NCBI GenBank assembly: GCA_023898465.1
Contig: CP060223.1
Span: forward strand, 544,001 to 608,000
DNA from: Candidatus Nomurabacteria bacterium
GTDB taxonomy: Bacteria; Patescibacteriota; Patescibacteriia; HK-STAS-PATE-3
Reading direction: 5' to 3'
DNA: 64,000 bases
The position numbers were made by a program, and so were the translations under genes. Below, piece after piece: positions 1-44,421 of this stretch; positions within the stretch are counted from its first letter, which is position 1; every line of letters begins with the position of its first letter. The notes under the pieces were generated by a model. It was not told the DNA's origin and searched no databases. It was given only the letters and a program-made list of their open reading frames with translations.

Positions 1-111
1 TCGATAGCGCTTCTTGCCCCAATGAAAAGCAATCGGCGTAACCTGACGGTCGCGAAAGGCTACTAAGACGCCGATGGGATCAGCTTCCTGGGTATATGCT
101 TCGGATTGCAT
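1..111 (-). CDS. Possible 5' fragment of a minus-strand gene that continues off the left edge (starts MQSEAYTQEADPIGVLVAFRDRQVTPIAFHWGKK). Function unknown.
   Basis: ATG at 111..109 with an open frame to the window edge. No SD. No recognisable motif. Confidence 0.2.
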   Translation of the reverse strand, partial: MQSEAYTQEADPIGVLVAFRDRQVTPIAFHWGKKRYR

Positions 112-281
112 GGCTTTTTCGCTTTTACTTACCTTTCTAGTATAACCGAAGAAAAACCGAAAGTCAACCCCGAGTGCAAACGAGGAGGGTGACTTTCGTC
201 TCGCCCTTGCCTATCCCCCGCCTTTGCTCTAGGCTACACTGCAGACCTTTGCTCTTTACCGTCCTGACCAAAGGAGGCACT

Positions 282-680
282 ATGGTCATCGGAAACGTCG
301 GAGCAGCGCTACTGCACCAACGTCATGGTGTCCGAGTCTTTCTCTATGTTTTGCATGCAACGCGAAAGTGCGTGATCGTGCCACTGCAAACCGAGTCAGC
401 CATCCTCACCACGGCCGAAGTTCCAACGGTCATTAGGAGAGTCCTGGAAGTCGAAACCAGCCTCACGAAGGGTGCGGCTAGCTTCAGTCTACTTCTCCGC
501 TCTCGCCGAAACCCTGATCGTCTGGAAACCTGGGATATCGAAAATCCTGAAGGAGATATCACCTTCAAGCCCGGAGCTACAGCAACGGAAGTCACCAACC
601 GTGTGAGAACAGCGATCATGGCACACCAAGATCGGGAACGCGTGTTTCCCGAGCTCGAACAATCTACCACCGCGGCCTAG
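282..680 (+). CDS. Hypothetical 132-aa protein encoded in a GC-rich patch.
   Basis: AAGGAGG sits 6 nt upstream of ATG 282, inside the longer ORF 174..680. Local GC is clearly above the flanks. No family recognised. The opposite-strand ORF 344..670 is also open, a GC effect. Confidence 0.35.
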   Translation: MVIGNVGAALLHQRHGVRVFLYVLHATRKCVIVPLQTESAILTTAEVPTVIRRVLEVETSLTKGAASFSLLLRSRRNPDRLETWDIENPEGDITFKPGATATEVTNRVRTAIMAHQDRERVFPELEQSTTAA

Positions 681-695
681 TGCTGCGGTGGCTTC

Positions 696-2465
696 TTATG
701 TAAATTTGATAACCTGCCCAGGTTGAAGAGACTTACCTGATTGCGTCTGTGGCTGACTATGTTTCTCTTGTGCCTGAACAGACTTTGACTGCTCAGCTTG
801 CTTCGGAGTATTTTTGGCTGGCTGACTCTTTTCCTGAGGTTGCTTCTTCTTAGGCTTCGCTGTGAATTGCACAGGACCTTTACTCAGCGCCTCGTGTAAG
901 CTAATTTCTTTTGGTGGCTCAGGAGCTACTTCACGCAACTGCTCAGGCTCAGGTGCCGTTTGTGTAAAATTCGGTCGATCGTTTCTTCCCTGCTCTCGCT
1001 CATTGCGTGGACGGGAGCTGTTTTGATTACCTTGAGGATTTGGTTGACGATTTCGGTCATTCCCGCCTGATCGTTGTCGAGATCCGCCGCCTTGATTTTG
1101 ACGCGGTCCACTTCCCCCTCGACGATCATTTCCACCCCTATTACCGCCGCTACGATTTCCGCCACCCTGGGAACCCTGTCCGAGGAAGATTTCATCAACT
1201 CCAGTCCATCGGCGGATTTTATCTTCTACAATCTCTCGCTTCTTAGCATAGCGCTCACGTGACACCTCAATCACTTTTTGCCCATTACCGGTTGGACCGC
1301 TCACTGGCTCCAGAGTTGTAGCGGAAAAAGGCTCAGAAGCTACTCCATCAATCATTAAGCGGAGATAAATATCGTACTTGGTCAGGTTTACTAAATCAGT
1401 CTCAGTGAAGGTGGGATCAAACTCTTTAGCCAAAAACTCTGCATCAGCGGCACCAACACGGAAACACACGATCGATCCGACGTTGCCAAAAACAGCCGCG
1501 CGAACTTGCTCATCTAACTGCTCAATATACTGGTGAGCCATGATAAGATTTAAGCGATACTTACGCGCCTCTGACAAAATGTTGGCAAAGCTCTCAGTGG
1601 CAAAGTTTTGAAATTCGTCAACATAGAGGAAAAAATCTTTACGATCTTTTTCCGCAATGTCTACGCGACTCATGGCCGCCAACTGAATCTTGGTAATCAT
1701 CATACCACCCAGCAAAGCTGCATTATCTTCACCAATACGGCCTTTGGAAAGGTTCAGTAAGACAATCTTTTGCTCGTCCATCAATTGCCGCAAATCAAAA
1801 GTACTCTTCGGCTGGCCAATGATATTACGAATCATTGATGAGGAAAGAAATTGACCAATCTTGTTTTGGATAGGTGAAACAGCTTCGGTACGGAATTGGT
1901 TAGCGTATTGGCCGAATTCCTCATGCCAGAAAGCCTTCACAATAGGATCAGTTAGCTTCTCCACCACTTTTGATCGATAGTCGTTGTCGACGAGAATACG
2001 AGGAATACCCAAAAGTGTTGACCCAGGATACTCAATCAAGGAGAGAATACTATTGCGCAAAATGTATTCCAATCGAGGTCCCCATGAGTCGCTCCACATT
2101 TTTTTAAACACCGAAACAAGACCCGAGGCTACTAAGTGGCGGTGGGCAGGGTTTACACTTTCTAAGACGTTGAAGGCTACCGGATAATCTACATCAGCCG
2201 GATTAATATACACCACATCATTAATTCGATGTGAAGGAATGTAATCTAAAATCTTTTCCACAAAGTCACCGTGCGGATCAATCACAGCTAAGCCATGACC
2301 AGCTCGCACATCCTGGATCATCATATTTTCAAGCACCGTCGTCTTACCCATACCGGTCTTACCGATAAAGTACATGTGACGGCGTCGATCATCTATTCTA
2401 ATACCAAAGCGCCGCTGCTGATTGCGGAAATTCGTTTTAGCAAAAAAATTAATATCTTCACTCAT
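696..2465 (-). CDS. VirD4/TraG/TraD-like type IV coupling-protein ATPase (FtsK/HerA superfamily). It has no N-terminal TM segment and carries a long disordered RGG/KQ-rich C-terminal tail.
   Basis: Walker A is YFIGKTGMGKTT and Walker B/DEFQ is LYVDEFQNF. The block ...RKYRLNLIMAHQYIEQLDE...GNVGSIVCFRVG matches the T4CP C-terminal (TraM-recognition) region. The tail (about 190 aa) is GGNRGG/RQ-rich then KQ-rich. Confidence 0.7.
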   Translation of the reverse strand: MSEDINFFAKTNFRNQQRRFGIRIDDRRRHMYFIGKTGMGKTTVLENMMIQDVRAGHGLAVIDPHGDFVEKILDYIPSHRINDVVYINPADVDYPVAFNVLESVNPAHRHLVASGLVSVFKKMWSDSWGPRLEYILRNSILSLIEYPGSTLLGIPRILVDNDYRSKVVEKLTDPIVKAFWHEEFGQYANQFRTEAVSPIQNKIGQFLSSSMIRNIIGQPKSTFDLRQLMDEQKIVLLNLSKGRIGEDNAALLGGMMITKIQLAAMSRVDIAEKDRKDFFLYVDEFQNFATESFANILSEARKYRLNLIMAHQYIEQLDEQVRAAVFGNVGSIVCFRVGAADAEFLAKEFDPTFTETDLVNLTKYDIYLRLMIDGVASEPFSATTLEPVSGPTGNGQKVIEVSRERYAKKREIVEDKIRRWTGVDEIFLGQGSQGGGNRSGGNRGGNDRRGGSGPRQNQGGGSRQRSGGNDRNRQPNPQGNQNSSRPRNEREQGRNDRPNFTQTAPEPEQLREVAPEPPKEISLHEALSKGPVQFTAKPKKKQPQEKSQPAKNTPKQAEQSKSVQAQEKHSQPQTQSGKSLQPGQVIKFT

Positions 2466-2468
2466 GGA

Positions 2469-3887
2469 TTATATTGGGAGATTACTGGGCGGTTGATCCT
2501 TTTCCTCGGCGTCCGAACTGAGCACCTCTTGATCAGGGTCCACCGGCACGGACTGAACTTGCTTTGCTCGACGAATTGGCACCACTTCAACTGGTAAACT
2601 GCTTGGAGGTTCAGCGCGGCGAGCTTCTGTCTTCTGCACTAATGGAGCTTTCACGTTCACTACTGGGAAGTGATAAATGGTGGCAAGCTCTTCAATGTTC
2701 AGCACATAGGGATCAGCACCGGTCGACATGTCACGATTTTGGAAGGCTCGTAAAATTCGCTTCTTCTTAGTGGCAATCCGTTTTTCTTTACCCAAGTATT
2801 TTGCTTTTGGCTTTGTCTTCTTATCGACTTTGAAGCCATTCATGTCCAGGGTATTAAATTGCTTTAAGGCTCCGGTAATACCTGGCACGCGATCCTTGGA
2901 AAAAGAATCGCCTTCGCCTAAGTATACAATACGCATTTTACAATCGAAATAGAGCTTGGCGGTCTTGTACGAAATCGCTTCAATAACTGCTTTATCGTTT
3001 GGCGTTAAGTGACTCATGATAGAAGCCTCTTTTGAATCCGAGGATTCCTCTTTACCAAAAGGACTGACAAGGTCAGCGGTAAAGGTTTCAGTCAAGCCAC
3101 TGGCAACCTGTTTTGGTAGCCAAAGCACATTATCAAGCAAGCCTCCACCACCTCCACTTGATCCATAGGTTGCCTTAGCGAGCTTCTTAATAATTCCCCG
3201 AGCTCCATCCAGCCACGAATCATCATCTGGTGGCACAATCATTGTCTGAATCCAAAGCTGCTCACCTGGTCGTAAGCGGCTCATATATTCAAGCAGTGAT
3301 GCCATCGGATCAAGCAGCTGCTGCGTCATCGTATGCTCAAAAGCCGGATAGGTGCGGATCGGGTAATAATCCTTTTGACGCAACACAATATCCGCTCCCC
3401 AGAGATCGTACTCTTCGTTTGGAAACTGGGCGACAAACTGCTGGGTGTAGTCCTCTACTTCGCTAATTTCCGCGTCTGGATACTGTGCGTAAAAAGCCGA
3501 CTCAACTAAATCACGATATTGAATAGGAATCCGCACGAGATATTGGATAAAGCCGCCGATGCTGATAATTTCAAAGCTGAGCGGTGGCTGAAACTCTCCC
3601 TTAATATTTTTTTCGTACCAGGAGGGTGCTGACTCAACACCATGGATGTGCGCAAAAGCTGACTCGAGCGCCTTCGGTGTCTGCTCAGTTTCACGTGGTA
3701 CATCAATCGCTAAAATGACGTACTCAATAGTAGACGCAAAACGCTCCTGGGCGTAACCAGTCCATAGCTTGAAGCCTCCCCAAAACAACGCAACGATAAT
3801 AATAAGCCAGCCGCCATGTGTAAAGAGAAACCAGGTGATGGCGAAAGGGTTAGAAAATTCGCTGAGGAAGGAAAAATCAATTGTCAT
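2469..3887 (-). CDS. Hypothetical membrane protein with N-terminal TM helices and a soluble domain of about 430 aa. Probable partner of the downstream ATPase.
   Basis: Hydrophobic FAITWFLFTHGGWLIIIVALFWGGF near the N-terminus. There is a 3-nt gap to the ATPase gene, on the same strand. No family recognised. Confidence 0.6.
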   Translation of the reverse strand: MTIDFSFLSEFSNPFAITWFLFTHGGWLIIIVALFWGGFKLWTGYAQERFASTIEYVILAIDVPRETEQTPKALESAFAHIHGVESAPSWYEKNIKGEFQPPLSFEIISIGGFIQYLVRIPIQYRDLVESAFYAQYPDAEISEVEDYTQQFVAQFPNEEYDLWGADIVLRQKDYYPIRTYPAFEHTMTQQLLDPMASLLEYMSRLRPGEQLWIQTMIVPPDDDSWLDGARGIIKKLAKATYGSSGGGGGLLDNVLWLPKQVASGLTETFTADLVSPFGKEESSDSKEASIMSHLTPNDKAVIEAISYKTAKLYFDCKMRIVYLGEGDSFSKDRVPGITGALKQFNTLDMNGFKVDKKTKPKAKYLGKEKRIATKKKRILRAFQNRDMSTGADPYVLNIEELATIYHFPVVNVKAPLVQKTEARRAEPPSSLPVEVVPIRRAKQVQSVPVDPDQEVLSSDAEEKDQPPSNLPI

Positions 3888-3920
3888 TTGCGTGTTTGTT
3901 TGAGCACGGACGGAAAAGGG

Positions 3921-5087
3921 CTAGGCTGTGGGTATTTCGGGTGGTGTTTGCGTTAAGGTATAGTCCCCGTTATCTAATCGAGTAAACATTTGTCGATTGG
4001 TCAGCGCCAAATGAATGGTGTTCTTTTTCACGACACGCTGAGAAAGCACCTCAGCAACCAGTGCTTCTCGGCTCATCGGCTCACCTTTTTTGCGAAGAAT
4101 GTCAGCTAACACTTCAGCTACCACACCTTCTTTGTAGCCCCACTCGCGCAAGGCATAAATTCCACGGCCAACTAACACATATTCCTTATTGAGAATCAGC
4201 TCATTATGCACGGTCGGCGGATATGCTTTACGAGGATCAAAGCCGGCGGTATTAATCCGCTTTGCAATTTCAGTGAAGTGAAGAGGTTGGCCCTCTTTCT
4301 TTAGGATAAGGTAAATCTTATCATTCATACGACGAGGAGAAATGCTTCCCCAGCTCGTCAAACCATATTCGTCAAAAGGATTGCGTCCTAAATCCTTACC
4401 CAGCTGCAAGGCTGAATGCAACATATCATCTGACAACGCATGCTCATGAATTTTTGCAAACTCTGTCTGGCGAAACTCTTGGAGTAAGTCTGGCAACTCA
4501 ACCGGGTGTCCGATCTTGGTAACCACGCTGACTAACTCACGAACAGTCTGTCGCAAGAGATCGAGTCCGGCACCCTTTAGTTTCCAGGCCCGGCGCATTG
4601 TTTCGCTCTCAGGCATCAATTCAACAGTATCTTTTAGTAATTCACTCAAGACAAAAATAACCGCTCGGCGATTCATGTCGCTTGGACCAGAAAAGCTGAG
4701 TAAGTGTTCGAGGAGCGCTTCCTCTTCCATAATGCCGCCCCGAGCAGTCAGCGTGGTAGTCAAAAGCTGCTGCACCTGGTGCATTACCTGATCAAAGACC
4801 TTGGCTCGGCGGATTTTCTTTACCGCAGTTCCCTCAATCTGGCGAATACGCTCACGAGTAACCTGATAAAGCGCACCAATCTCTTCTAGGGTCTGCGTTT
4901 CTTTGCCGCTTAAACCGTGTCGGCGACGTAAAATATCCTCTTCCTTTCCTGTTAGCTCTTTGAGTAACAAAGAAATGGTTTCAGAGGGGTTAAATTGCTC
5001 CATATCAGTTTGCTGCTTGGAGCTGAGGATTTTGTCCAAAATTGAGTTGGACTCGTTTGTATCCATTGACGTATTGCTTACAATCAA
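3921..5087 (-). CDS. DNA-binding protein with a sigma-70 region-4 HTH followed by two HARE-HTH-like winged helices. The start may be the second Met, at 5066.
   Basis: LTGKEEDILRRRHGL..TLEEIGALYQVTRERIRQIEGTAVKKIR is sigma-70 region 4. KIYLILKKEGQPLHFTEIAKRIN..HNELILNKEYVLVGRGIYALREWGY is a HARE-HTH, with a second copy earlier in the protein. A strong sigma-70 promoter lies immediately upstream. Confidence 0.7.
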   Translation of the reverse strand: MIVSNTSMDTNESNSILDKILSSKQQTDMEQFNPSETISLLLKELTGKEEDILRRRHGLSGKETQTLEEIGALYQVTRERIRQIEGTAVKKIRRAKVFDQVMHQVQQLLTTTLTARGGIMEEEALLEHLLSFSGPSDMNRRAVIFVLSELLKDTVELMPESETMRRAWKLKGAGLDLLRQTVRELVSVVTKIGHPVELPDLLQEFRQTEFAKIHEHALSDDMLHSALQLGKDLGRNPFDEYGLTSWGSISPRRMNDKIYLILKKEGQPLHFTEIAKRINTAGFDPRKAYPPTVHNELILNKEYVLVGRGIYALREWGYKEGVVAEVLADILRKKGEPMSREALVAEVLSQRVVKKNTIHLALTNRQMFTRLDNGDYTLTQTPPEIPTA

Positions 5088-5100
5088 GCGTACTAACGAT

Positions 5101-5129
5101 AATATAGCACATTAGCAAAAATATGTCAA
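5101..5129 (-). promoter_or_regulatory. Sigma-70-type promoter for the sigma-r4/HARE-HTH operon: TTGACA-N17-TATATT on the minus strand.
   Basis: Revcomp of 5124-5129 is TTGACA. Revcomp of 5101-5106 is TATATT. Spacer 17 nt. Confidence 0.6.
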
Positions 5130-5177
5130 GCTATTTGACCAAAACAAAAAACCTTTCAATCCGTCCCCTATCTTAGC

Positions 5178-6089
5178 TTAACGAAAGCGTCGCGCTCGCC
5201 AATTATGCCACTCAACCAATAACGTGCTGGCAATGAAAATTGAGGAGTAAGTTCCCACGATAATACCCGCAATCAGCGCTATCACAAACATACGAATTGA
5301 CTCTCCTCCCAGTACCGCCAGAGCAACTAATACAAACAATGTCGTCATCGAGGTATTAATAGAGCGCGACATGGTCTCATTAATACTCCGGTTAGCGATT
5401 TCTTCAAAAGGCTCATTATGATAACGCTGGATACCCTCACGAATACGATCAAAAACAACAATGGTATCGTGCACTGAGAATCCTAGCACCGTAAGTAAAG
5501 CTGTTACAAAAAGTGAATCAACCTCTGTGCCAAATATCTGACCAAAGAGCACAAAGAGACCTACGATAATAGAAATATCATGAATCAATGCAACAATCGC
5601 GCCAACGCCAAATACCCAACTGGGCACCGGTCCGCCACGAGAAATCTTACGGAAGGCCCAAGTGATATACGCGATGATACCTATGAGAACTAAAGCAATG
5701 GCTGAATACGCTTTCTTGCGCAACTCTTGACCAATACTCGGTCCAATCGCAGTAAATGAATCTTCACTCACCTGCTCTTCTTGTAAAGCGCTTAAGGCAT
5801 CTAGGACTGATTGGCGCTCGTCATTGCTTAAGGCGCGTGTTTTTAGGATGAGGCTTTTTTCGTTAGAAGGAACTGCTTGATAAGAACCCAGGTCTAGAGG
5901 ATTCAATGCGTCTTGTATCGTCGAAAGTTCTGGACGAAGTTCTGGGAAGCTTATCTCCAATCGAGAACCGCCAGTGAAATCAATACCAGGCTTCAAGCCC
6001 CAAATCAAAGCACCGACAATAGAGGCCACAACAAGTATCGCGGAAATGATAGTAAAATATTTTCGCTTTTGGATAATCTTTAGCGTCAT
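5178..6089 (-). CDS. secF: Protein translocase subunit SecF.
   Basis: GIDFTGG motif and SecD/F TM architecture. The start ATG at 6089 overlaps the secD stop (ATGA). Upstream Met in the ORF is an extension artefact. Confidence 0.9.
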   Translation of the reverse strand: MTLKIIQKRKYFTIISAILVVASIVGALIWGLKPGIDFTGGSRLEISFPELRPELSTIQDALNPLDLGSYQAVPSNEKSLILKTRALSNDERQSVLDALSALQEEQVSEDSFTAIGPSIGQELRKKAYSAIALVLIGIIAYITWAFRKISRGGPVPSWVFGVGAIVALIHDISIIVGLFVLFGQIFGTEVDSLFVTALLTVLGFSVHDTIVVFDRIREGIQRYHNEPFEEIANRSINETMSRSINTSMTTLFVLVALAVLGGESIRMFVIALIAGIIVGTYSSIFIASTLLVEWHNWRARRFR

Positions 6090-7750
6090 ACTTGTTCCTT
6101 CTTCCGTACTCCATACAGCCAGGCCACACTCACCCATCGTTGAGTGAGACGTAAGAATGTGCGCGTAACTACAATGGCTGAAAACATACTTACTAAAATA
6201 CCAATCGCTAAGGTAATCGCGAATCCTTTAATGATACTTGTACCAAACCAGGCCAAGATAAAAGTGGTAATTAAACTTGAAATGTTTGAATCGCGAATAG
6301 ACAACCAAGCGCGTCGGAAACCCTCTTCAATCGCTTGATTAAGTGGTCGACCTTCACGCAACTCTTCTTTCATGCGTTCAAAAATAAGCACGTTTGCGTC
6401 TACTGCCATTCCGATGGAAAGAATAAATCCAGCAATTCCAGCTAGAGTCAAAGTCACTGGCCAGAGAATAAAGATGGCAAAAACTACGGCGGAGTATACC
6501 CCTAAAGCCAAAACTGAGATAAGGCCAGGCAAGCGATAATAGAGAATCATAAAGAGCGCAACTAAGCCGAGCCCAATTATGCCAGCAACAAAACTAGACT
6601 GCACTGAACGCTCACCAAGGGTTGGTCCTACATTCTGTTGAGAAACAAGCGTAATTGGTACTGGCAGTGCACCAGCATTTAAATTACGAGCTAAGTCTCG
6701 CGCTTCTTGCAAGGTAAAATCACCTGAGATAACCGCTTCTCCACTCGTGATAGCCTGCTGAACTGTTGGTAAGCTTAATGGGAAGCCATCTAAATAAATA
6801 GCCACCACCTTGCCAACATTGCGCTCAGTAATTTCTTTAAAAAGCTGTGTACCCTCGCTATTGAAATTCAAACTAATCTCTGGAGTATTGGTAGTTTGAT
6901 CAAACACGACTGAAGCTCGTTCCAAATCCTTACCCGATAGCCCAGTTGCCACAAAATCGGTTGAGGGTTCAGTTGACTGCAGTATAAAAAGAATATGACT
7001 ACCTTGAACTTCTCGCACATCTTGCCCATCTTGATTCGCTGTACGCTCGTCGGTCTTCTTAATAATATGCAGACCGAATTGCGATTCAACCAGCTCCGGA
7101 TACACCTGCCCGACCGCTAAATCACCGAAGAGAACGTCATCGAATTCTTGCACGAAAGTGCCTTGTTGCGCAAAACCGAGATCGCCCCCATTATCTTTAC
7201 TACCCGGATCTTCGGAATAGAGTTGGGCCAATTGAGCAAAATCAGCGTCAGGTTGAAGCGCTTGTGCTAATACGTCTTGTGCTTTTTTTCGCACTTCTTC
7301 GTTTTGCGCCTCTATGGCTGCTGGATCCTCTGGTGTGGTCTCAATCTGTTCACGAAATTCTAAGGTTGGAGTTTGACCAATCTGCGCGATTGCCTGGTTC
7401 ACGTCAGTGACACCTGGTAATTCAATCGAGACTCGCCATTGATCGCCAGCCTTTTGCGTTTGGACAACTGGCTCGGATACACCAAAGGCATTCACTCGAC
7501 GCTCAATAACATCGCGAACACCTTCTACAGCGTCTTGCGCCTCAGCTGGAGCTACTTGCGATAGATCAGCGTCATAGAGCAATGACACGCCGCCTTGCAA
7601 ATCCAAACCCAGCTGAACAGGTAAATCAATAGTCCAGTCTACTGGCCCTACGTGAATCCGGATTGGTTTTTGATAGTCAATGGTACCAGCTAGCAGGGTG
7701 AGCAATAGAATCCCGGCAAAACTGAGCCAAACTTTCTTCCGTACGGTCAT
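6086..7750 (-). CDS. secD: Protein translocase subunit SecD.
   Basis: LGLDLQGGVSLLY motif, large periplasmic domain, C-terminal RND-like 6-TM bundle. 4-bp overlap with secF. Confidence 0.9.
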   Translation of the reverse strand: MTVRKKVWLSFAGILLLTLLAGTIDYQKPIRIHVGPVDWTIDLPVQLGLDLQGGVSLLYDADLSQVAPAEAQDAVEGVRDVIERRVNAFGVSEPVVQTQKAGDQWRVSIELPGVTDVNQAIAQIGQTPTLEFREQIETTPEDPAAIEAQNEEVRKKAQDVLAQALQPDADFAQLAQLYSEDPGSKDNGGDLGFAQQGTFVQEFDDVLFGDLAVGQVYPELVESQFGLHIIKKTDERTANQDGQDVREVQGSHILFILQSTEPSTDFVATGLSGKDLERASVVFDQTTNTPEISLNFNSEGTQLFKEITERNVGKVVAIYLDGFPLSLPTVQQAITSGEAVISGDFTLQEARDLARNLNAGALPVPITLVSQQNVGPTLGERSVQSSFVAGIIGLGLVALFMILYYRLPGLISVLALGVYSAVVFAIFILWPVTLTLAGIAGFILSIGMAVDANVLIFERMKEELREGRPLNQAIEEGFRRAWLSIRDSNISSLITTFILAWFGTSIIKGFAITLAIGILVSMFSAIVVTRTFLRLTQRWVSVAWLYGVRKKEQV

Positions 7751-7870
7751 ACGGGAAGATTGTAGGACAAAAAGAGTAAGTAATCAAGTGGCGAAAAACA
7801 AAACTCGGCATGACCATTAGGCATCACGCACCTGTTACTATTTGGCTTTTACCGCCTGCTCGTCCCCAGC

Positions 7871-9292: not shown

Positions 9293-9300
9293 TTGTTTGT

Positions 9301-9422
9301 CTTTCCAAAAGAAAAGGGAGAACGGGTGAGGAATCAATTTGGACTCGCTAGAAAGCTAGTAAACCCGAAGTGATTCCTCACCCGATAAGACTCTTTTTGT
9401 GTCTCTTTTTGTTTTTGGAAAG
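9301..9422. repeat. Nested imperfect inverted repeat (13-bp perfect core GGGTGAGGAATCA/TGATTCCTCACCC plus outer CTTTCCAAAA/TTTTGGAAAG arms) in the divergent intergenic region.
   Basis: Read directly. Core arms at 9324-9336 and 9371-9383. The outer arm at 9301-9310 is mirrored at 9413-9422. Confidence 0.6.
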
Positions 9423-9473
9423 AGCCGACTGCATACATCATAGCACACTTTTCGCTTCTCGTCAACATATATC

Positions 9474-9501
9474 TTGAGTTCGCTGCTCCTTTTGCTACAA
9501 T
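9474..9501 (+). promoter_or_regulatory. Sigma-70-type promoter TTGAGT-N16-TACAAT upstream of sodN.
   Basis: TTGAGT at 9474-9479 and TACAAT at 9496-9501. ATG at 9534. Confidence 0.5.
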
Positions 9502-9533
9502 AGCAGCACTCAGCATTTACTCTCGACACTTCT

Positions 9534-9986
9534 ATGAAGAAAAAAATTAAGAGCATTTTCTCTAAAGTACTATTTGGCGAGGAGGCTTCGGCCCACTGTG
9601 ATGGACCTTGTGGAGTATACGATGGTGCCTCCGCGGAAATTGCCGCGCGAGCAGCAGTGAGCATGACTAAGAAGCTCCTTGAGCTCACAACGCCCACTCC
9701 GCAATCAAGTCCAGAAGATAAACTCAACTACCACCACACCGTTGCCCGCTATACACTGATCAAAGAGGAGCAAAGTGAAATTGCCAAGCGCGAACTTCTC
9801 ATACTCTGGACTGATTTTTTCAAACCAGAGCATCTCGATGCTTTTCCTGATTTGCATGAGTTCATTTGGAAGCTTGCCAAACAGTGTTCATATGTGAAGC
9901 AGCACGTTGATCTCGAAGCAGCTGAAAAAATGCACGCTGATATCATGAAGCTGGCTGAGATGCATCATCAGGCCTCTCACCACTAA
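9534..9986 (+). CDS. sodN: Nickel superoxide dismutase precursor (NiSOD).
   Basis: Ni-hook motif HCDGPCGVYDGA follows a 20-aa propeptide. The four-helix-bundle length is right. The SodX-like peptidase is immediately downstream. Confidence 0.85.
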   Translation: MKKKIKSIFSKVLFGEEASAHCDGPCGVYDGASAEIAARAAVSMTKKLLELTTPTPQSSPEDKLNYHHTVARYTLIKEEQSEIAKRELLILWTDFFKPEHLDAFPDLHEFIWKLAKQCSYVKQHVDLEAAEKMHADIMKLAEMHHQASHH

Positions 9987-9987
9987 A

Positions 9988-10821: not shown

Positions 10822-10822
10822 G

Positions 10823-12986: not shown

Positions 12987-13670
12987 TCAGCTCAGCGGAT
13001 GAGCCTCCAGGTAGGCATTGAGCTCCTGGATACCGCTCGCAACACGTCTCCCTTCATCAGGGGTGATTTCTTCTTCCTCCTCCAGTAGCGAGAGGAGTCC
13101 GGAGAGTGTGAAGAGGGAGTGGAGTTGAATTCCGTTCTTGGCCAAATCCCGCATCCCTCCGCCTTCCCGATCCACCACCACGAGACAGTCGGTCACTACC
13201 AGACCCTTCTCTCGCAGAGCCTGTGCTGCCTCTAGCTTGGAGTCAGCCGCTGTGACGACATCATCAAGCATGAGGCAAGCAGCACCAGCTTGCATGCTCC
13301 CATGCACGATCGAAGCAATCTTCCGCTTCCCTCCCGCCTCACCCTTCTCCATCCGAAGGAGTCGGTCAGCTGGCAAATCAGCTGAGAAGACAAAACTCTC
13401 AGCAAGCGGTTCCGCCGCCGTTGGCAAACCCACGACATGAAAGAAAGCCAGCTCCCTCCGCTGTGCACAGAGACGAAACTCACGGGCAATCTCTGTGATC
13501 AGCAGGGCGGTAAGCTCGCCCCGAGGTGCTACACGCAGGTTGATGTAGATTGGAGAAAGCGGAGCTTCGGGCAAACGATCGTGCACCTTCAGTCTGAATT
13601 CACCCGTCTGCACAATCCCCTTACGGTAGAGCTGCACCCCCAAACGCCTGAGTCTCGATTCCGTAGTCAT
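12987..13670 (-). CDS. pyrE: Orotate phosphoribosyltransferase-like (PyrE), encoded in a GC-rich patch.
   Basis: LMLDDVVTAADSKLEAAQALREKG...LVVVDREGGG parallels E. coli PyrE MLVDDVITAGTAIRE...LISLDRQERG. N-terminal FRLKVHDRLPEAPLSPIYINLR. No other pyr genes nearby. Confidence 0.6.
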   Translation of the reverse strand: MTTESRLRRLGVQLYRKGIVQTGEFRLKVHDRLPEAPLSPIYINLRVAPRGELTALLITEIAREFRLCAQRRELAFFHVVGLPTAAEPLAESFVFSADLPADRLLRMEKGEAGGKRKIASIVHGSMQAGAACLMLDDVVTAADSKLEAAQALREKGLVVTDCLVVVDREGGGMRDLAKNGIQLHSLFTLSGLLSLLEEEEEITPDEGRRVASGIQELNAYLEAHPLS

Positions 13671-20071: not shown

Positions 20072-20494
20072 TCAACGAGGATTGACCGGCTGCTTGGGCG
20101 AAGACTTGGGCTTCGAAGAAGGCTTTTTGTCCACTCCATTGGACCGAGGCCTTCTCGACTTTCCGGTCCTTGTGGACGGCAGTCTGAAAGCTTCTTTCAC
20201 TCGCCCCGCCGCCAATTCCAGCTTGCTGGGCTTGGCAGACGAGCTATTCACCTCGGGTGCTTGCTTGGCGTCAGCGAAGTTCTGTGCGACCTCGCCATGA
20301 GCTTGAGCTGAAACACCGGATGCCCGACGATTCTCATCGCGCACCCGATCGTAGATCTCTTCCCGGTGGACAGCGACATTCTTCGGCGCATCAACGCCAA
20401 TCTTGACCTGTCCACCCTTCACATCCAGGATGATGATCTTGACCCGATCACCTACCCGGATATTCTCCCCCAACTTCCTTGTCAAAATGAGCAT
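20072..20494 (-). CDS. csrA: CsrA-like carbon storage regulator with a basic K/S/P-rich C-terminal extension of about 75 aa. GC-rich patch.
   Basis: [48 protein letters not shown] is near-canonical CsrA. The ORF's 25 upstream residues are an extension artefact. The tail is PKQPVNPR-rich. Confidence 0.7.
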
Positions 20495-28735: not shown

Positions 28736-29452
28736 CTAGCCACATGGCGGACGCTCGACCAGTAGACTGGCCAAAGCGACCTGTTCGCCCCAACTCAACC
28801 AAGTCGGCATAATAACCGCTTGGCGTTCCCAATGGGTACCGGCGCAGTCTTCCTGAACAGGAAGAGACTGAAGATAGTTCAGGATAGCCCTAGCCTTGTC
28901 CTCAGCCGACTGTCTCGTGTTCAGAATCTCACCGATGCGATCCATCGAAAGACCAAGGAAGCCTGGCCCAGACAGATTGATGAAAAACACCGTGGGCCGA
29001 TTCTCAGGTTCCCGACCGAAGTAGACGTTGTCTTGCATCCCCGGATCTTGAATATCCAAGAGAGCGAAGTTGACATCGCCACGAACATCGAAGACGCCGT
29101 CTGTGATCACTTCGTCACCTTGACATCGACGACCTTGGTCAACGTAATCCACTCTACCCAGGTAGCCTACCACCCTCACGTTGATGAGGCTGGAGAACTG
29201 GATCTCGTCCGAAACCATGCCGATGAGGTGGTCCGGTTGGTTACGATACAGCGCCTGATCAGCCATGTCTTTGATCAAGGCCTGACGCTTATCGCGATTC
29301 CAGTCCGTATGTACGAACACGGGTCCGGTTGCATCGACGAGCGTCGGTCGTTCTTGCGAAGACTCGGGTGGCGTTGGCTCTTTCCCACCACAAGCAAAGT
29401 TGCTGAAGGACAGGGCCAACAGTGTAACCAAAGAAAAAATCCACGAACGCAT
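28736..29452 (-). CDS. Hypothetical lipoprotein (GC-rich patch).
   Basis: MRSWIFSLVTLLALSFSNFACGG is a signal plus lipobox-like Cys. No family recognised. Confidence 0.5.
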   Translation of the reverse strand: MRSWIFSLVTLLALSFSNFACGGKEPTPPESSQERPTLVDATGPVFVHTDWNRDKRQALIKDMADQALYRNQPDHLIGMVSDEIQFSSLINVRVVGYLGRVDYVDQGRRCQGDEVITDGVFDVRGDVNFALLDIQDPGMQDNVYFGREPENRPTVFFINLSGPGFLGLSMDRIGEILNTRQSAEDKARAILNYLQSLPVQEDCAGTHWERQAVIMPTWLSWGEQVALASLLVERPPCG

Positions 29453-29557: not shown

Positions 29558-29869
29558 CTAGCATCTGCAGGTGATTTTGTCAACCATTAGCCCCAGGCGA
29601 AAATGGTCATCTTCGCCTGGGGTATACATATTTTGCAAAAGTAAAGACGCGATGCCCTCTCCATCGCGTCTGTATAGCTCTTCATCCGGATCTTCCGGGA
29701 AATCACAGCTAGGATTAATATGCGTCTTCCAAACGATCAATCGATGCTCCTGATTCGGTAAGACCTGGACCACTCCCTCATACATCTCACCGGGATAAAT
29801 CGGTTGACAGCAACGATCGCACCAATGCGCAACTTGAGCAACGCTATGATAAGAGCGTAGGCAAATCAT
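29558..29869 (-). CDS. Hypothetical small Cys/His-containing protein.
   Basis: HWCDRCC...C...C..C. Possible Zn binding, speculative. Confidence 0.4.
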   Translation of the reverse strand: MICLRSYHSVAQVAHWCDRCCQPIYPGEMYEGVVQVLPNQEHRLIVWKTHINPSCDFPEDPDEELYRRDGEGIASLLLQNMYTPGEDDHFRLGLMVDKITCRC

Positions 29870-30951: not shown

Positions 30952-31320
30952 ATGTGTACGACTCTGGAACAGCCTTCCGCGATTTCAGTCACAGTCAATT
31001 GCACCTTCCAGCTTGAGCCGCCTGAGTCGCTTCCAAGGGAATGTGTGCAACAAGGCCTGGTACTCAGATACACCATCAGCATCGACTCGGCACCGGGAAA
31101 TCTCAAAGATGGATCTCAAGTTCATCTCAAAGACCTGCCGCCCGAGCATCGCCAGTTCTGGGATGAGGTCGAGCGCGAGATCGAGGCCTTCCTGGGGCGA
31201 ATCAAACCCGCTCTACCAGGCTGGATAGTGAACCACATCTCCTGCTTCGTGCACGACCAGGATGCGTCTCCTAGCGTGATCACCAATCGGAATCTTCCAG
31301 CGCGAATAATCCCTGGTTGA
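30952..31320 (+). CDS. Hypothetical protein (GC-rich patch, AGGAG RBS).
   Basis: AGGAG sits 7 nt before ATG 30952. No family recognised. Confidence 0.4.
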   Translation: MCTTLEQPSAISVTVNCTFQLEPPESLPRECVQQGLVLRYTISIDSAPGNLKDGSQVHLKDLPPEHRQFWDEVEREIEAFLGRIKPALPGWIVNHISCFVHDQDASPSVITNRNLPARIIPG

Positions 31321-38388: not shown

Positions 38389-38430
38389 GGCCTCCAGACT
38401 ACTTCTCTGGAGGCCCCCTTTCTTTATTCT
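38389..38430 (+). terminator. Plus-oriented stem-loop GGCCTCCAGA-N7-TCTGGAGGCC followed by CCCTTTCTTTATTCTTT. Terminator-like, transcript unknown.
   Basis: 10-bp perfect stem at 38389-38415 and a T-rich tail, read directly. Confidence 0.35.
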
Positions 38431-38453
38431 TTACTAAAAAGACTTTGCATGGT

Positions 38454-38670
38454 TTGACAGTAAAAAAGTGAAAGGTATAAGCTGACAACGGAAACGGCCC
38501 GGACGTGTGGAGATGCTTCAAGATAGGGGTCGTAGTCCATGCCCAAAAATCGCACATTCGCATGGAGGAGGGGTAGAGGGTAATTCAGAAGCCGTCCGGG
38601 CACTTTGCCGGATCGTGAACCCTCCAGTCGGAGCCTCGGAATCGGTGTGCGTGATTGCCGGGGCTTTTTT
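38454..38670 (+). ncRNA. Candidate sRNA A: TTGACA-N16-TATAAG promoter, about 180-nt GC-rich structured body, GCCGGGGC plus TTTTTT terminator.
   Basis: Promoter at 38454-38481. Long-range pairing GCCCGGACG/CGTCCGGGC and CCATGC/GCATGG. T6 at 38665-38670. The overlapping ORFs 38424..38798 and 38507..38740 look non-protein-like. Confidence 0.3.
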
Positions 38671-38671
38671 A

Positions 38672-38878
38672 TTGACAAAAAATTTCCATTTGTTACTATG
38701 GCTGCATCGCACCTTCCCGCTCCTTTTTTCAACTTCCTAGCAGCTGATTCAGCTGCATTCGCGTTCGCTCTACGGACTTCCCCTTTCTCTGTTCTCACTG
38801 CTCCCTCCTGTCTTCCGTGTTCTGGCTTCGCGTCTCGTTCTCCCAGCCAGGTGCAACATTGTACCTGGCTTTCTTTTT
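38672..38878 (+). ncRNA. Candidate sRNA B: TTGACA-N16-TACTAT promoter, about 170-nt C/U-rich body, GCCAGGT-N10-ACCTGGC plus TTTCTTTTT terminator.
   Basis: Promoter at 38672-38699 and terminator at 38846-38878. Internal GCAGCTG-att-CAGCTGC hairpin. CU-rich tracts (CCTTCCCGCTCC, CTCCCTCCTGTCTTCC). Confidence 0.3.
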
Positions 38879-39410
38879 AAAAATCTACAGCAGCCAAATA
38901 TCTCGCTGTATTCACATTTCGTACAGTCATGTACTTATACAGCTTTGACCCAATCACTTTACTCAACTGACTTTTATTCAGGTTCTCTTTTTTTACGTGC
39001 CAGACAATCGCACCTTTTATATAACGCAAGTCCATATACTCTTTTTTCATTGGTAACTCATCAAGAGTTTTCTTATCATCAACTTCAGGGAAAAGGAAAG
39101 CTACATCGGTCTTTTGTGTCTGATGATCGTTCTGCCAAGTCTGAGGAATTGCTGCCACGATTTTCTTCACCTCAGCTTGTGTCTTGATTAACACGGGGAT
39201 AGGAAAGCCAAATTCATTTACTAGGGCTTTTGTCAGCGCTGACTGAATATCCTTACTCTTCCCTTTTGCATTAAAAAGAATGTTGCCAGAATTTATGTAA
39301 GTTGAAACATCCGTGTAACCCAAACTCCCACACAACTCCTTGAGTCGCTTCATTTCTACTTTGTTATTCCCGCCAACATTAATGCCGCGGAGGAGGGCTA
39401 TGTATCTCAT
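38877..39410 (-). CDS. DUF1697 family protein.
   Basis: MRYIALLRGINVGGNNKVEMKRLKELCGSLGYTDVSTYINSGNILF is a canonical DUF1697 N-terminus. AT-richer than the flanks. Confidence 0.8.
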   Translation of the reverse strand: MRYIALLRGINVGGNNKVEMKRLKELCGSLGYTDVSTYINSGNILFNAKGKSKDIQSALTKALVNEFGFPIPVLIKTQAEVKKIVAAIPQTWQNDHQTQKTDVAFLFPEVDDKKTLDELPMKKEYMDLRYIKGAIVWHVKKENLNKSQLSKVIGSKLYKYMTVRNVNTARYLAAVDF

Positions 39411-39973
39411 TGATTGATCACCAAAAACTTCTGCTCAGGAATTTTAAGAATTTCGCACGGCTCTCCAAAACTCTCAAGACCTTCAAGCTTATCTTGTTTG
39501 TCTTCCGACCAATGGACAAACACTTTCACATTTAAGATCCCCAAACCTTGGTGAAATTTCTGACTATCAACATGATAAAAATATCGCGATAACATTTGCG
39601 CCCCAGCGGATGATCCTGCTACTGTTTTTCCCTGCCACAACTCTACCAGCATAGGCACCTTCCGCATATGTTCCAAAAGTACTAATGTCTCACCGCCAAT
39701 AGTATAAATTGCATCAGCGTTCTTAATCTGCTCAATAAAAGTCTGTGTATTCTCGGACGCCATAACAAAGTGTATAGATTTCTCCAGAGCAACTACAGAA
39801 AATCGTTCTTTGGTTAAATCAAAAAATTCTTTCCAGAGGCTTTTATCACGTGCAAAGGGAATAAACAACACAGTAGGCTCGCTCGGTACATCCTTTAAAA
39901 TTTCCTGCACGTAAGCTCGATTATCTACAGTATCATATTTTAGCGCACCACCGTGCAGTATATATTTTGTCAT
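39407..39973 (-). CDS. Peptidase S51 (peptidase E / cyanophycinase-like, class-I glutamine-amidotransferase-like) family protein.
   Basis: GKTVAGSSAGAQML is a GxSAG nucleophile elbow in the expected position. 4-bp overlap with the DUF1697 gene. Confidence 0.6.
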   Translation of the reverse strand: MTKYILHGGALKYDTVDNRAYVQEILKDVPSEPTVLFIPFARDKSLWKEFFDLTKERFSVVALEKSIHFVMASENTQTFIEQIKNADAIYTIGGETLVLLEHMRKVPMLVELWQGKTVAGSSAGAQMLSRYFYHVDSQKFHQGLGILNVKVFVHWSEDKQDKLEGLESFGEPCEILKIPEQKFLVINQ

Positions 39974-39993
39974 ACGTTAAACCTTTTCGACAT

Positions 39994-40512
39994 TTATTTT
40001 CTCCCGACATTCTCATCCATGTCTTTGCCTCCAATAAAAGACAAAACATCAAAATCAGGATCAAGCAACTTTACTAAATCAAGGTCAGGACGATTCATTA
40101 TTTCCACGCCTGGCATTTTTTCACCTCTAGACAACGCCTTTTTTAGTTCTTCAAATTCCTCTTTATCCAAGACAAAATCAACATCGCCCACCTCGGTGTG
40201 CTGATCTGGTTTACGAATATAGAGATAGGTATAGGTGGTCTCCGGAATATCACCTTGGGCAGGAATAACAATGGGCTCATGGAGACGATAATATTTTTGA
40301 TTCCAATTATCAGATTCTTTTGTCAGCTCCTGGCGAACTTTTGTGAGATAGCTATACTCGTCATCGTCATGGCAAAATATTCCGAGATTACCTGCCACTG
40401 GTAAATATCTGCCAAAATTTTTTTTACATAACTCAAAACACTTAAGGTGAGTATATGTTATCGCTTGTATCAATTGCTCTTTGTCTTGGATTGGACTAAA
40501 TCGATACTGCAT
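39994..40512 (-). CDS. Hypothetical protein.
   Basis: Intact ORF, AT-richer composition. No motif recognised. Confidence 0.5.
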   Translation of the reverse strand: MQYRFSPIQDKEQLIQAITYTHLKCFELCKKNFGRYLPVAGNLGIFCHDDDEYSYLTKVRQELTKESDNWNQKYYRLHEPIVIPAQGDIPETTYTYLYIRKPDQHTEVGDVDFVLDKEEFEELKKALSRGEKMPGVEIMNRPDLDLVKLLDPDFDVLSFIGGKDMDENVGRK

Positions 40513-44159: not shown

Positions 44160-44421
44160 TCTCACCCTTCTTTAACCATTTTACCCCACTTCCTGGTTTT
44201 CGTCAACCACTTTAAAAACCACAAGAATTAGGCGTATTGGTCAAGAAAATGGTGAAATAGCACAATTTCAAGAAATAACGTTACACTTAGGCACTTCCCC
44301 ACTTCGACCTCAGGAAGATGTACGTCAAAAATGACAAACTTGACCTTTTGCTGAGCCTTTGTAAACTGCCGACACTAAGGAATTCTTTGCACTTTCACAA
44401 TCTACTAGGAGGAGAGCGACA

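What the first reader, a model, noticed from the sequence alone, without database searches (positions are those of the whole stretch)
174..680. Compositional mosaic: GC-rich islands carrying strong Shine-Dalgarno sequences in an SD-poor genome
Most genes here sit at mid-40s % GC with weak or absent SDs. Several discrete patches are visibly GC-rich and their genes have textbook AGGAGG sites. These are 174-680 (hypothetical), 12987-13700 (pyrE-like, no other pyr genes nearby), 20050-20570 (csrA-like), 28736-29551 (lipoprotein), 30900-31320, 44420-46323 (glmS) and the non-coding 51281-52638. This pattern points to relatively recent acquisition from a higher-GC, SD-using donor. It may include housekeeping replacements (glmS, pyrE).
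Basis: seen in the sequence. Interest (0 to 1): 0.55.

Follow-up and report, generated by a model that had tools for sequence, protein, structure and literature searches.

The report
Foreign GC-rich gene cassettes in CPR genome
About a tenth of this stretch of a tiny "candidate phyla radiation" bacterium's chromosome consists of single-gene inserts with their own base composition, codon dialect and classic ribosome-binding sites, which is best read as ordinary horizontal gene transfer, including an in-place swap of the cell-wall precursor gene glmS.

Summary
The window is chromosome from a Patescibacteria (CPR) MAG, labelled Ca. Nomurabacteria, with 47% GC. The GC-rich patches are real. Five genes have GC3 z-scores of 3.8-7.8; the anchor ORF (true start 282) reaches only 2.3. 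All islands share a non-host dinucleotide signature (pooled delta* 107, null 31±10) and one codon dialect (r=0.80). That dialect uses codons the host's ribosomal-protein genes avoid. Strong SD sites occur in 5 of 6 GC-rich genes against 6 of 63 others (p=2e-4). Several backbone genes look leaderless.

Foreign origin is supported. A ~90%-identical relative lacks the glmS module. A more distant relative carries a compositionally normal glmS at the same site that is only 44% identical, while neighbouring genes are 52-80% identical. This points to xenologous replacement at a hot spot.

No donor was found. GlmS is a long branch but carries CPR-type indels, so the donor is probably another CPR lineage, not a distant high-GC phylum. 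"pyrE" is only a divergent phosphoribosyltransferase. The "non-coding" 51.3-52.6 kb region holds small transcription units. HGT at this scale is already documented in Patescibacteria, so interest is moderate to low.

The parts
175..692 (+). Island 1. It holds ORF132 (ATG 282 to stop 680), an AGGAGG SD at 272-277, a putative promoter TTGCCT-N17-TAGGCT near 222-250, and a hairpin over the stop codon. It is the right-hand edge of a GC-rich block of at least 5 kb that continues left of the window.
   Evidence: GC 0.556, GC3 z=2.3. Rho GC 0.98, TA 0.59, GA/TC 1.21. One homologue (48% identity, 130 aa, E=9e-30) among 1.84 billion representatives. Logan contigs L088/L089 are 99.99-100% identical to window 1-12465. 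They carry further GC-rich SD-led genes to the left, with GC3 0.57-0.69.
12987..13670 (-). Island 2. A 227-aa type-I phosphoribosyltransferase, OPRT-like but divergent. SD GGGGAGG. Promoter TTGACC-N17-TAGCGT at about 13749-13721. Terminator hairpin at about 12980-12945.
   Evidence: GC 0.570, GC3 0.597, z=4.5. NCBIfam OPRT models score 81 bits against a 208-bit cut-off; Pfam Pribosyltran E=0.0018. Delta* 190 against a null of 86±26. One partial homologue in a 38%-GC metagenome contig.
20072..20494 (-). Island 3. CsrA domain (residues 1-57) followed by a Lys/Pro/Ser-rich tail of about 80 aa. Promoter TTGACA-N17-TAGTAT at 20604-20576. The 5' UTR is roughly 75 nt and contains AGGAGG followed by a hairpin. 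The real SD is GGAG.
   Evidence: NCBIfam CsrA 93.9 bits against a 73-bit cut-off. GC3 0.626, z=4.7. Sequences. The upstream junction is reproduced in L092 and L093.
28736..29452 (-). Island 4. A 238-aa predicted lipoprotein with signal peptide and lipobox (...SNFAC). SD GGGGGT. Promoter TTGACA-N17-TAGGTT at 29583-29555.
   Evidence: GC3 0.589, z=4.8. Translation; upstream sequence. No Pfam, NCBIfam, PHROG or PADLOC family.
30952..31320 (+). Island 5. ORF122, a 122-aa protein with no known family. SD AAGGAG. Promoter TTGACA at about 30882. Terminator hairpin at about 31330-31355.
   Evidence: GC3 0.603, z=3.8. Sequences. No family hits.
44263..46460 (+). Island 6. The glmS expression module: promoter TTGACC-N16-TAAACT (44340), 5' UTR, AGGAGG SD (44407), glmS ORF 44422-46323, intrinsic terminator, and an AT-rich tail. 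It lies between the conserved mraZ regulatory region and yibE/F.
   Evidence: GC3 0.598, z=7.8. TIGR01135 577 bits against a 418-bit cut-off. The indel against L086 is bounded at about 44260/46482. Absent in L082. A syntenic but only 44%-identical glmS sits in L090. Long branch with CPR-type indels.
51305..51804 (-). Island 7a. A small module with promoter TTGACC-N17-TAGGAT (51802), hairpin/T-run terminators, and a 38-aa ORF (51572 to 51456) with a GAGGAGG SD.
   Evidence: Absent from L086. The 38-aa ORF has a positional homologue next to uvrD in L083 (motif FDxV..G..CPxxDC...MxL). GC 0.53.
51805..52572 (-). Island 7b. A GC-rich (59.6%) transcription unit of about 740 nt. Promoter TTGACA-N17-TAGTGT (52572). 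Strong terminator at 51860-51810. It contains only tiny ORFs, some SD-led. Candidate structured RNA or small-protein mRNA.
   Evidence: Present in L086 at about 89% identity; the central block of about 265 nt has only a handful of substitutions. MFE z=-4.5. No Rfam match. No match in the viral or metagenome scans.
29558..29869 (-). A 103-aa gene with a strong AAGGAGGGAG SD but host-like GC, directly upstream of island 4. Possibly an older or different-source acquisition.
   Evidence: SD -12.7 kcal/mol; GC 0.478.
38424..40512 (-). A variable block absent from relatives L082 and L090. It holds an SD-led 124-aa ORF (38424-38798) and three low-GC (0.38-0.40) genes: DUF1697, peptidase S51, and one of unknown family.
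   Evidence: This shows that inserts of lower GC also occur.

Best explanation
The window is a conserved, syntenic Patescibacteria chromosomal backbone of about 46% GC. Its genes mostly start without an SD, and several are apparently leaderless. The backbone is interrupted at intergenic hot spots by self-contained single-gene expression modules.

Each module has a promoter with a -35 element, a 5' UTR of tens of nucleotides, a strong or near-consensus SD, an ORF and an intrinsic terminator. The modules are 53-60% GC. All carry the same non-host dinucleotide signature and codon dialect.

The best reading is that these modules were acquired horizontally from one kind of donor: a GC-richer, SD-using and fast-evolving lineage, most likely an unsampled CPR relative. 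They probably entered by DNA uptake or T4SS-mediated transfer, followed by illegitimate or flank-homology recombination into intergenic DNA. At the mraZ-adjacent site the incoming module replaced, or re-filled, a resident glmS (xenologous displacement).

The genes keep their donor-style SD-dependent translation because the host ribosome can still use SD sites. A few host-composition genes and one translationally coupled gene also have strong SDs.

Shown here: the compositional anomaly, the shared signature, the module anatomy, presence/absence in relatives for glmS and 51302-51804, and the anomalous GlmS divergence.
Inferred: donor identity, transfer route, direction (gain versus loss) for the other islands, and actual transcription and translation start sites.
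For: GC segmentation and GC3 z-scores.

Dinucleotide signature: pooled delta*x1000 is 107, against a null of 31±10 with a maximum of 61. Each island shows the same shifts in rho GC, TA and GA/TC.

Codon dialect: the codon-usage shift of glmS correlates with that of the other five GC-rich genes at r=0.80. It includes changes that GC level does not explain: CGC goes down, CGG and AGA go up, and TTA falls to about 0. The dialect also uses GGG, GCG, TCG, CCC and CGG, which the L10 and L7/L12 genes avoid. In 4/6-fold codon families the correlation with the ribosomal-protein shift is only 0.08.

SD enrichment: Fisher p=2.3e-4. In the 33-62 kb stretch where synteny with L082 is known, the full-length genes with a strong SD (glmS, the 124-aa ORF) and the 38-aa ORF all lack an L082 counterpart.

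The glmS module and 51302-51804 are missing from the ~90%-identical L086, with clean junctions.

GlmS is 44% identical to the syntenic copy in L090, whereas MraZ is 80%, PBP 69%, MraW 62% and Mur ligase 52%. The L090 copy is compositionally ordinary.

Independent assemblies confirm the junctions.

Literature: up to 13% of Patescibacteria genome length is attributed to HGT, and 83% of events are intra-phylum (PMC12455944).
Against: No donor or close homologue was found for any island gene: GlmS at most 47% identity, ORF132 with one 48% homologue, and nothing in IMG/VR.

No integrase, transposase, tRNA or clear target-site duplication flanks the islands.

glmS sits at the same locus in a 68%-UvrD relative and also has an AGGAGG SD there. 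An old resident gene with later loss in L086 and L082 is therefore not excluded.

GlmS shares indels with the GlmS of the host's own wider clade.

The 38-aa ORF is positionally conserved in L083.

In two-fold codons the islands resemble ribosomal-protein genes (r=0.82).

The anchor ORF's GC3 deviation is weak (z=2.3).
Confidence: 0.65

Rival explanations
1. Native, highly expressed genes. On this view translational selection produces both the strong SDs and the C-ending codon bias, which raises GC3. No transfer is involved.
For: Strong SDs are a high-expression feature (established knowledge). In two- and three-fold codon families the shift of the GC-rich genes tracks that of the L10/L12 genes (r=0.82). 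C/(C+T) is 0.59 in the GC-rich genes and 0.58 in the ribosomal-protein genes, against about 0.32 in the backbone. The glmS of a relative also has AGGAGG.
Against: In 4/6-fold families the correlation is 0.08. The islands use GGG, GCG, TCG, CCC and CGG, which the ribosomal-protein genes avoid. L10 and L12 themselves have GC3 of only 0.44 and 0.51, and no SD. GC1, GC2 and the dinucleotide signature also differ. The gene set (ORFans, a lipoprotein, CsrA) is not a plausible top-expression set. The glmS module is dispensable in a near relative.
Confidence: 0.08
2. Old resident accessory genes kept GC-rich by a local process. That process could be GC-biased gene conversion at recombination-prone intergenic hot spots, or repeated allele exchange within the species. 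The relatives would then have lost them.
For: glmS occupies the same site in a distant relative. The 38-aa ORF is positionally conserved. 51805-52572 is shared with L086 and is GC-rich in both. The same intergenic sites vary in content among four genomes.
Against: gBGC should raise all G/C-ending codons, but CGC falls, AGA rises, and the GC dinucleotide is depleted relative to expectation. The syntenic glmS in L090 is compositionally ordinary. GlmS divergence (44%) is far beyond that of its neighbours. This scenario needs several independent losses against one gain.
Confidence: 0.17
3. Assembly or binning artefact, in which reads from a GC-richer organism were chimerically joined into the MAG.
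For: The genome is a MAG. Two independent short contigs end inside csrA.
Against: Logan contigs from SRR12358676 and SRR12358675 are 99.99-100% identical across the ORF132 island and its flanks. Logan and ENA contigs run from backbone genes through the csrA promoter and 5' UTR into the first codons. A related species carries 51805-52572 in the same place. The islands sit precisely in intergenic gaps and have host-type promoters.
Confidence: 0.02

Closest known systems
Horizontally transferred genes and genomic islands in Patescibacteria (mSystems 2025, PMC12455944)
   Same: A streamlined CPR genome with roughly 10% of its DNA compositionally atypical. The transfers are inferred to be mostly within the phylum, and donors are often unrecovered.
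   Different: Here the units are single-gene modules inserted at many intergenic sites, not multi-gene islands or prophages. They share one signature, and they differ from the backbone in translation-initiation style. That paper does not mention Shine-Dalgarno sites or glmS.
Xenologous (in situ) gene displacement of housekeeping genes
   Same: A universal enzyme gene (glmS) sits at a conserved chromosomal position. Its sequence is far more divergent than that of its neighbours, and its composition is foreign.
   Different: The sister lineage L086 has no glmS at the site at all. The event may therefore be loss followed by re-acquisition and not a direct swap. The donor is unknown, and I could not check whether a second glmS exists elsewhere in the genome.
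GeneMarkS-2 'group C' genomes and 'atypical' gene class (PMC6028130)
   Same: A mix of leaderless first genes (Pribnow box 6-9 nt before the start codon) and SD-led genes. Atypical-composition genes average about 8-9% of a genome.
   Different: In group C genomes SD sites typically serve operon-internal and leadered native genes. Here the strong SDs are concentrated in compositionally foreign or relative-absent single genes. CPR genomes are not among the taxa mentioned in the passages I read.
Amelioration model of acquired DNA
   Same: Retained donor GC, GC3 and signature imply acquisition recent enough that composition has not yet drifted to the host's.
   Different: One island (51805-52572) predates the split from the ~90%-identical relative.

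Membership tests
Horizontally acquired genomic island / atypical gene | Base composition (GC, GC3) significantly different from the rest of the genome | tested here: met
   HMM segments are 53.7-58.5% GC against 46.1% elsewhere. GC3 z is 3.8-7.8 for five genes and 2.3 for ORF132.
Horizontally acquired genomic island / atypical gene | Oligonucleotide and codon signature different from the host, independent of GC level | tested here: met
   Delta* is 107 against a null of 31±10. The per-island shifts are consistent. The codon dialect is shared at r=0.80. The TETRA correlation was not discriminating with only 6.6 kb (z=-0.7).
Horizontally acquired genomic island / atypical gene | Patchy distribution: absent at the syntenic site in close relatives | tested here: inconclusive
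   Met for the glmS module and for 51302-51804 (absent in L086; glmS and the whole element absent in L082). Not met for 51805-52572, which L086 shares. The sites of csrA, PRTase, lipoprotein, ORF122 and ORF132 were not covered by any relative's contig.
Horizontally acquired genomic island / atypical gene | Mobility hallmarks: integrase or transposase, tRNA target, flanking direct repeats | tested here: not met
   No tRNA in the window. No integrase or transposase domain in the 50 proteins scanned against Pfam. Only a 7-bp CACTTAG recurs at the glmS junctions. A VirD4/TrwB-like coupling protein lies next to island 1.
Horizontally acquired genomic island / atypical gene | Phylogenetic incongruence with an identifiable donor clade | tested here: inconclusive
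   GlmS is 42-47% identical to everything and forms a long branch in an NJ tree. It shares four indels with the CPR-type GlmS proteins P0002-P0009. No ML tree was made, and no donor was found.
GlmS (glutamine--fructose-6-phosphate transaminase) | Score above the curated family cut-off, with the N-terminal catalytic Cys after Met | tested here: met
   TIGR01135 577.6 bits against 418; NF001484 599.6 against 381. The protein starts MCGIIGY.
PyrE (orotate phosphoribosyltransferase) | Score above the curated equivalog cut-off | tested here: not met
   The best match is NF010382 at 81.4 bits against 208. TIGR00336 scores 58.4 against 106.8. Pfam Pribosyltran scores 18.1 against 26.3. The protein is a divergent type-I PRTase of unknown substrate.
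CsrA (carbon storage regulator) | Score above the curated cut-off over the full CsrA domain | tested here: met
   NF002469 93.9 bits against 73; TIGR00202 86.1 against 70.1; residues 1-62. The extra C-terminal tail of about 80 aa is atypical.
Leaderless-plus-SD ('group C'-like) genome organisation | A -10 box ending about 6-10 nt before the start codon of first-in-operon genes, with SD used by other genes | tested here: met
   TGCTATACT lies 6-9 nt before the ATG at 38268, 30823, 28639 and 11290; other candidates are at 7750, 22062, 23801 and 26518. Real transcription start sites cannot be tested with these tools.

The most novel reading that the evidence does not exclude
All GC-rich modules share one dinucleotide and codon dialect. 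They may therefore come from a single partner lineage with which this episymbiotic CPR bacterium is physically associated: its host, or a co-resident GC-richer CPR. If so, the backbone is SD-independent or leaderless, and SD-led translation marks a continuing stream of ready-to-express single-gene cassettes from that partner. These cassettes can even replace housekeeping genes at fixed intergenic hot spots. The island signature could then serve as a fingerprint to find the unknown partner in the source metagenomes.
Probability: 0.2. Interest if true: 0.6.

Novelty: new member of a known kind. Interest (0 to 1): 0.35.

Why it matters
The result documents, with nucleotide-level junctions, that a roughly 1-Mb streamlined CPR genome still turns over single genes at intergenic hot spots, including the peptidoglycan-precursor enzyme GlmS. 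It also suggests a practical marker. In this lineage a strong Shine-Dalgarno site combined with the island codon dialect flags acquired genes, while native genes are largely SD-less or leaderless. If the shared signature traces to one partner organism, it could help identify who these uncultured symbionts live with. In other respects this is a normal instance of horizontal transfer as already described for Patescibacteria.

Tried and rejected
Searches that found nothing useful:
- Rfam at gathering threshold on the whole window, and at E<=10 on 51100-52800: nothing credible. No tRNA or tmRNA.
- The genome-contig scan with GlmS returned only 37-43% hits from many phyla, because the 8-mer seeds were idiosyncratic. 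It gave no information on the donor.
- IMG/VR scans with the PRTase, CsrA, lipoprotein and ORF132: no relatives, so there is no evidence for a phage source.
- An exact 23-mer from the conserved core of 51805-52572: no match in viral or JGI metagenome contigs.
- The metagenome scan with the PRTase found one 28-residue partial match in a 38%-GC contig, which says nothing about the donor.
- PADLOC and PHROGs: no defence or phage assignment beyond a generic CsrA-like and a PRTase family.

Analyses that were uninformative:
- AlphaFold2 on ORF132 from a single sequence gave pLDDT 46, so no fold search was attempted.
- The TETRA correlation was not discriminating at 6.6 kb.
- L082 as donor type was rejected. 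It is 53.7% GC and resembles the islands in rho GC, TA and GA, but differs strongly in CG, CA and AA (delta* 162).
- RNAalifold on the two available copies of 51805-52572 found only 3 compensatory pairs, too few to call a structure.
- The exact-protein look-up for xseB found nothing. The look-up for the Pterin-4a protein gave only same-strain contigs.
- The published Patescibacteria SOS-network paper (pmid 28618189) is not held in the library, so the candidate LexA box could not be compared with it.
Full report
**What the window is.** The GlmS protein encoded at 44422-46323 is 100% identical to an NCBI protein from 'MAG: Candidatus Nomurabacteria bacterium' on a 1,082,586-bp contig. UvrD and an ABC permease have their closest non-self relatives among unnamed Patescibacteria and Kerfeldbacteria MAGs. 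Pfam annotation shows ordinary chromosomal genes: secDF, the mraZ-mraW-PBP-mur cluster, xseA, lexA, a Y-family polymerase, uvrD, rplJ and rplL, plus a VirD4/TrwB-like coupling protein. There is no tRNA and no Rfam family in the window.

**Checking the observation: composition.** Window GC is 47.1%. These run at 53.7-58.5% GC, against 46.1% elsewhere. Most edges sit within about 15-40 nt of single-gene borders; the 27840-29417 segment also extends into the 5' part of xseA. I compared each gene's GC3 with the value expected from the pooled synonymous usage of all other genes. This gave z=4.5 (PRTase), 4.7 (csrA), 4.8 (lipoprotein), 3.8 (ORF122) and 7.8 (glmS). The anchor ORF, whose real start is the ATG at 282, reaches only z=2.3.

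**Checking the observation: Shine-Dalgarno sites.** AGGAGG is exact for ORF132, glmS and a 38-aa ORF. The PRTase (GGGGAGG), ORF122 (AAGGAG) and the lipoprotein (GGGGGT) are near-consensus. csrA has only GGAG; its AGGAGG lies about 60 nt upstream in the 5' UTR. A strong SD occurs in 5 of 6 GC-rich genes against 6 of 63 others (Fisher p=2.3e-4). Most backbone starts have no SD. Several have a TGCTATACT box 6-9 nt before the ATG, which is the geometry of leaderless mRNAs. This matches the GeneMarkS-2 'group C' description (PMC6028130).

**The anomaly is more than GC level.** Dinucleotide relative abundances, which are normalised for base composition, differ between the pooled islands and the backbone by delta*x1000 = 107. 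Size-matched backbone samples give 31±10, with a maximum of 61. Every island shifts the same way: rho(GC) 0.81-1.03 against 1.30, rho(TA) 0.35-0.64 against 0.78, and rho(GA/TC) 1.13-1.37 against 0.99. Variable genes of host-like GC (yibE/F, an asparaginase) carry the host signature.

The codon-usage shift of glmS relative to the backbone correlates at r=0.80 with that of the other five GC-rich genes. It includes changes that GC cannot explain: CGC falls, CGG and AGA rise, and TTA almost disappears. The islands therefore look like products of one kind of source.

**The high-expression rival.** The L10 and L7/L12 genes also prefer C over T in two-fold codons, as the islands do (r=0.82 over 2/3-fold families). 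In 4/6-fold families the correlation is 0.08. The islands use GGG, GCG, TCG, CCC and CGG freely, whereas the ribosomal-protein genes avoid them. The ribosomal-protein genes have GC3 of only 0.44-0.51 and no SD. Translational selection is therefore not the explanation.

**Relatives and synteny.** UvrD homologues led to three related genomes:
- L086: UvrD 99% aa, about 90% nucleotide identity overall.
- L082, from GCA_964637345.1: UvrD 70%, 53.7% GC.
- L083, L087 and L090, from GCA_043800725.1: UvrD 68%, about 42-44% GC.

Gene order from manC-like, yceG, rplJ and rplL through lexA, uvrD, mraZ, mraW, PBP and murC-like is conserved in L082. L082 lacks glmS, yibE/F, one asparaginase, the whole 51.3-52.6 kb element and the four genes at 38424-40512.

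L086 lacks 44260-46482, which is glmS with its promoter and terminator. There yibE/F abuts the conserved mraZ regulatory region, and the junction is clean. L086 also lacks 47662-49072 and 51302-51804, but it has 51805-52638 at 89% identity. The backbone is therefore punctuated by gene-sized indels, of higher GC and also of lower GC (38877-40512 is 39% GC).

**glmS in detail.** The best non-self hits among 5.8 billion proteins are 43-47% identical. In an alignment of 120 GlmS proteins, the window protein shares four rare insertions only with P0002-P0009, a group that includes Kerfeldbacteria (CPR) proteins. It is nevertheless a long branch: 42-47% identical to everything, while GlmS proteins from different phyla are 50-55% identical to each other.

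Its nearest neighbour in the NJ tree, P0005 (about 44-46% identical, depending on the method), turned out to be the glmS of relative GCA_043800725.1. That copy sits at the same place, divergently adjacent to mraZ, and also has an AGGAGG SD. Its GC3 excess (+0.065) is within the normal range for glmS against its neighbours (+0.03±0.06 over 73 loci). The flanking orthologues are 52-80% identical to the window's, against 44% for GlmS.

The simplest reading is that the clade had a glmS at this hot spot, and that the window lineage now carries a xenologous, GC-richer, very divergent copy. L086 either lost the gene or never regained it. The donor, however, looks like an unsampled member of the CPR radiation and not a distant high-GC phylum.

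**The other islands.**
- The 'pyrE-like' protein scores far below every OPRT cut-off (81 bits against 208). It is a divergent phosphoribosyltransferase.
- CsrA passes its cut-offs and carries an unusual basic tail of about 80 aa.
- ORF132 has a single 48% homologue among 1.84 billion representatives.
- The lipoprotein and ORF122 have no family.
- None has a relative in IMG/VR.
- Each sits between a TTGAC-type promoter and a hairpin/T-run terminator. That promoter type is also used by backbone genes such as the L10 operon, so the promoters do not set the islands apart.
- I could not obtain relatives' contigs covering these five sites. Their foreign origin therefore rests on composition, signature and SD style only.

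**Assembly artefact is excluded for the junctions checked.** Logan contigs L088 and L089 are 99.99-100% identical to window 1-12465. They extend about 5 kb further left and reveal more GC-rich, SD-led genes (GC3 0.57-0.69) and a second Y-family polymerase. ORF132 is therefore the edge of a larger island next to the T4SS coupling protein. Logan and ENA contigs also cross the csrA upstream junction.

**The 'non-coding' 51281-52638 region.** It splits in two.

51305-51804 holds a promoter, terminators and a 38-aa SD-led ORF. A positional homologue of that ORF lies beside uvrD in L083.

51805-52572 is a minus-strand unit of about 740 nt, running from a TTGACA-N17-TAGTGT promoter to a strong terminator. 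It is 59.6% GC. Its central block is almost invariant between the window and L086, while the flanking genes differ by 8-11%. Its MFE z-score is -4.5, and it contains only tiny ORFs. It may be a structured RNA or a small-protein mRNA. With only two copies, covariation is uninformative.

Horizontal acquisition from a GC-richer, SD-using source is the best explanation (about 0.65). It is directly supported for glmS and for 51302-51804. For the rest it is inferred from a shared foreign signature.

The main rival is that these are old accessory genes kept GC-rich by a local process and then lost in relatives (about 0.17).

HGT covering up to 13% of Patescibacteria genomes, mostly within the phylum, is already published (PMC12455944). 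This is therefore a new example of a known kind. Two features add modest interest: SD-led translation marks the acquired genes in a largely SD-less or leaderless CPR backbone, and all the islands share a single dialect.

Noticed in passing
window 146-162 (-), 52644-52660 (+), 53320-53336 (+); also L082 9133-9148 and 9868-9883, L083 6700-6715, L086 230-245 and 906-921: A conserved 16-17-nt motif, TTCGGTTTTTCTTCGG (a TTCGG-N6-TTCGG direct repeat), lies inside the promoters of lexA, of the Y-family polymerase gene, and of an 86-aa gene that starts at window 112. There are 4 matches in the window against 0.16 expected. It is a candidate LexA (SOS) box for this CPR clade. I could not compare it with the published Patescibacteria SOS study because that paper is not held.
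   Followed up: partly
window 51805-52572 (-): A GC-rich transcription unit of about 740 nt with no convincing ORF. MFE z=-4.5. Its core block of about 265 nt is almost invariant against L086. No Rfam family matches. It is a possible novel structured RNA.
   Followed up: partly
L088 12355-17502 (left of window position 1): Beyond the window's left end lie an SOS-box-controlled 86-aa gene and a 58-aa zinc-ribbon-like gene, a second Y-family polymerase, and four more GC-rich SD-led genes (172, 107, 480 with CBM_4_9, and 199 aa). Island 1 is therefore part of a block of at least 5 kb next to the VirD4/TrwB-like gene.
   Followed up: partly
window 38877-40512 (-): Three adjacent low-GC genes (0.38-0.40): DUF1697, peptidase S51, and one of unknown family. 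They are absent from relatives L082 and L090. Their dinucleotide signature is not distinguishable from the backbone, so they may be acquisitions from a lower-GC relative.
   Followed up: partly
window 47662-49072 versus L086 about 4003-4171: L086 lacks the asparaginase and the 87-aa ORF found between yibE/F and uvrD. In their place it carries an unrelated GC-rich non-coding stretch of about 170 nt. This is another variable intergenic hot spot.
   Followed up: no
window 20495-20575 (-): The csrA 5' UTR contains CAGGAGGG followed directly by a GGGCG-loop-GCGCCC hairpin, well upstream of the real start. It is a possible CsrA autoregulatory GGA site. The CsrA protein has an unusual Lys/Pro/Ser-rich C-terminal tail of about 80 aa.
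   Followed up: no
window 6086-7750 (-): SecD carries an inserted PPIC-type peptidyl-prolyl isomerase (rotamase) domain between its N-terminal P1 segment and the P1 head. This is an unusual SecD architecture.
   Followed up: no
L083 6687-8983: In the 41%-GC relative, the lexA-uvrD spacer is 2.3 kb with no called genes. It is full of TTGACA promoters, hairpin/T-run terminators and small SD-led ORFs. This spacer seems to be a clade-wide nursery of small transcription units.
   Followed up: partly
window 20461-20484: Two independent short-read contigs (Logan L092, ENA L093) both terminate within about 35 nt of the csrA start codon. This may reflect strain heterogeneity or a coverage change at this island.
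   Followed up: no
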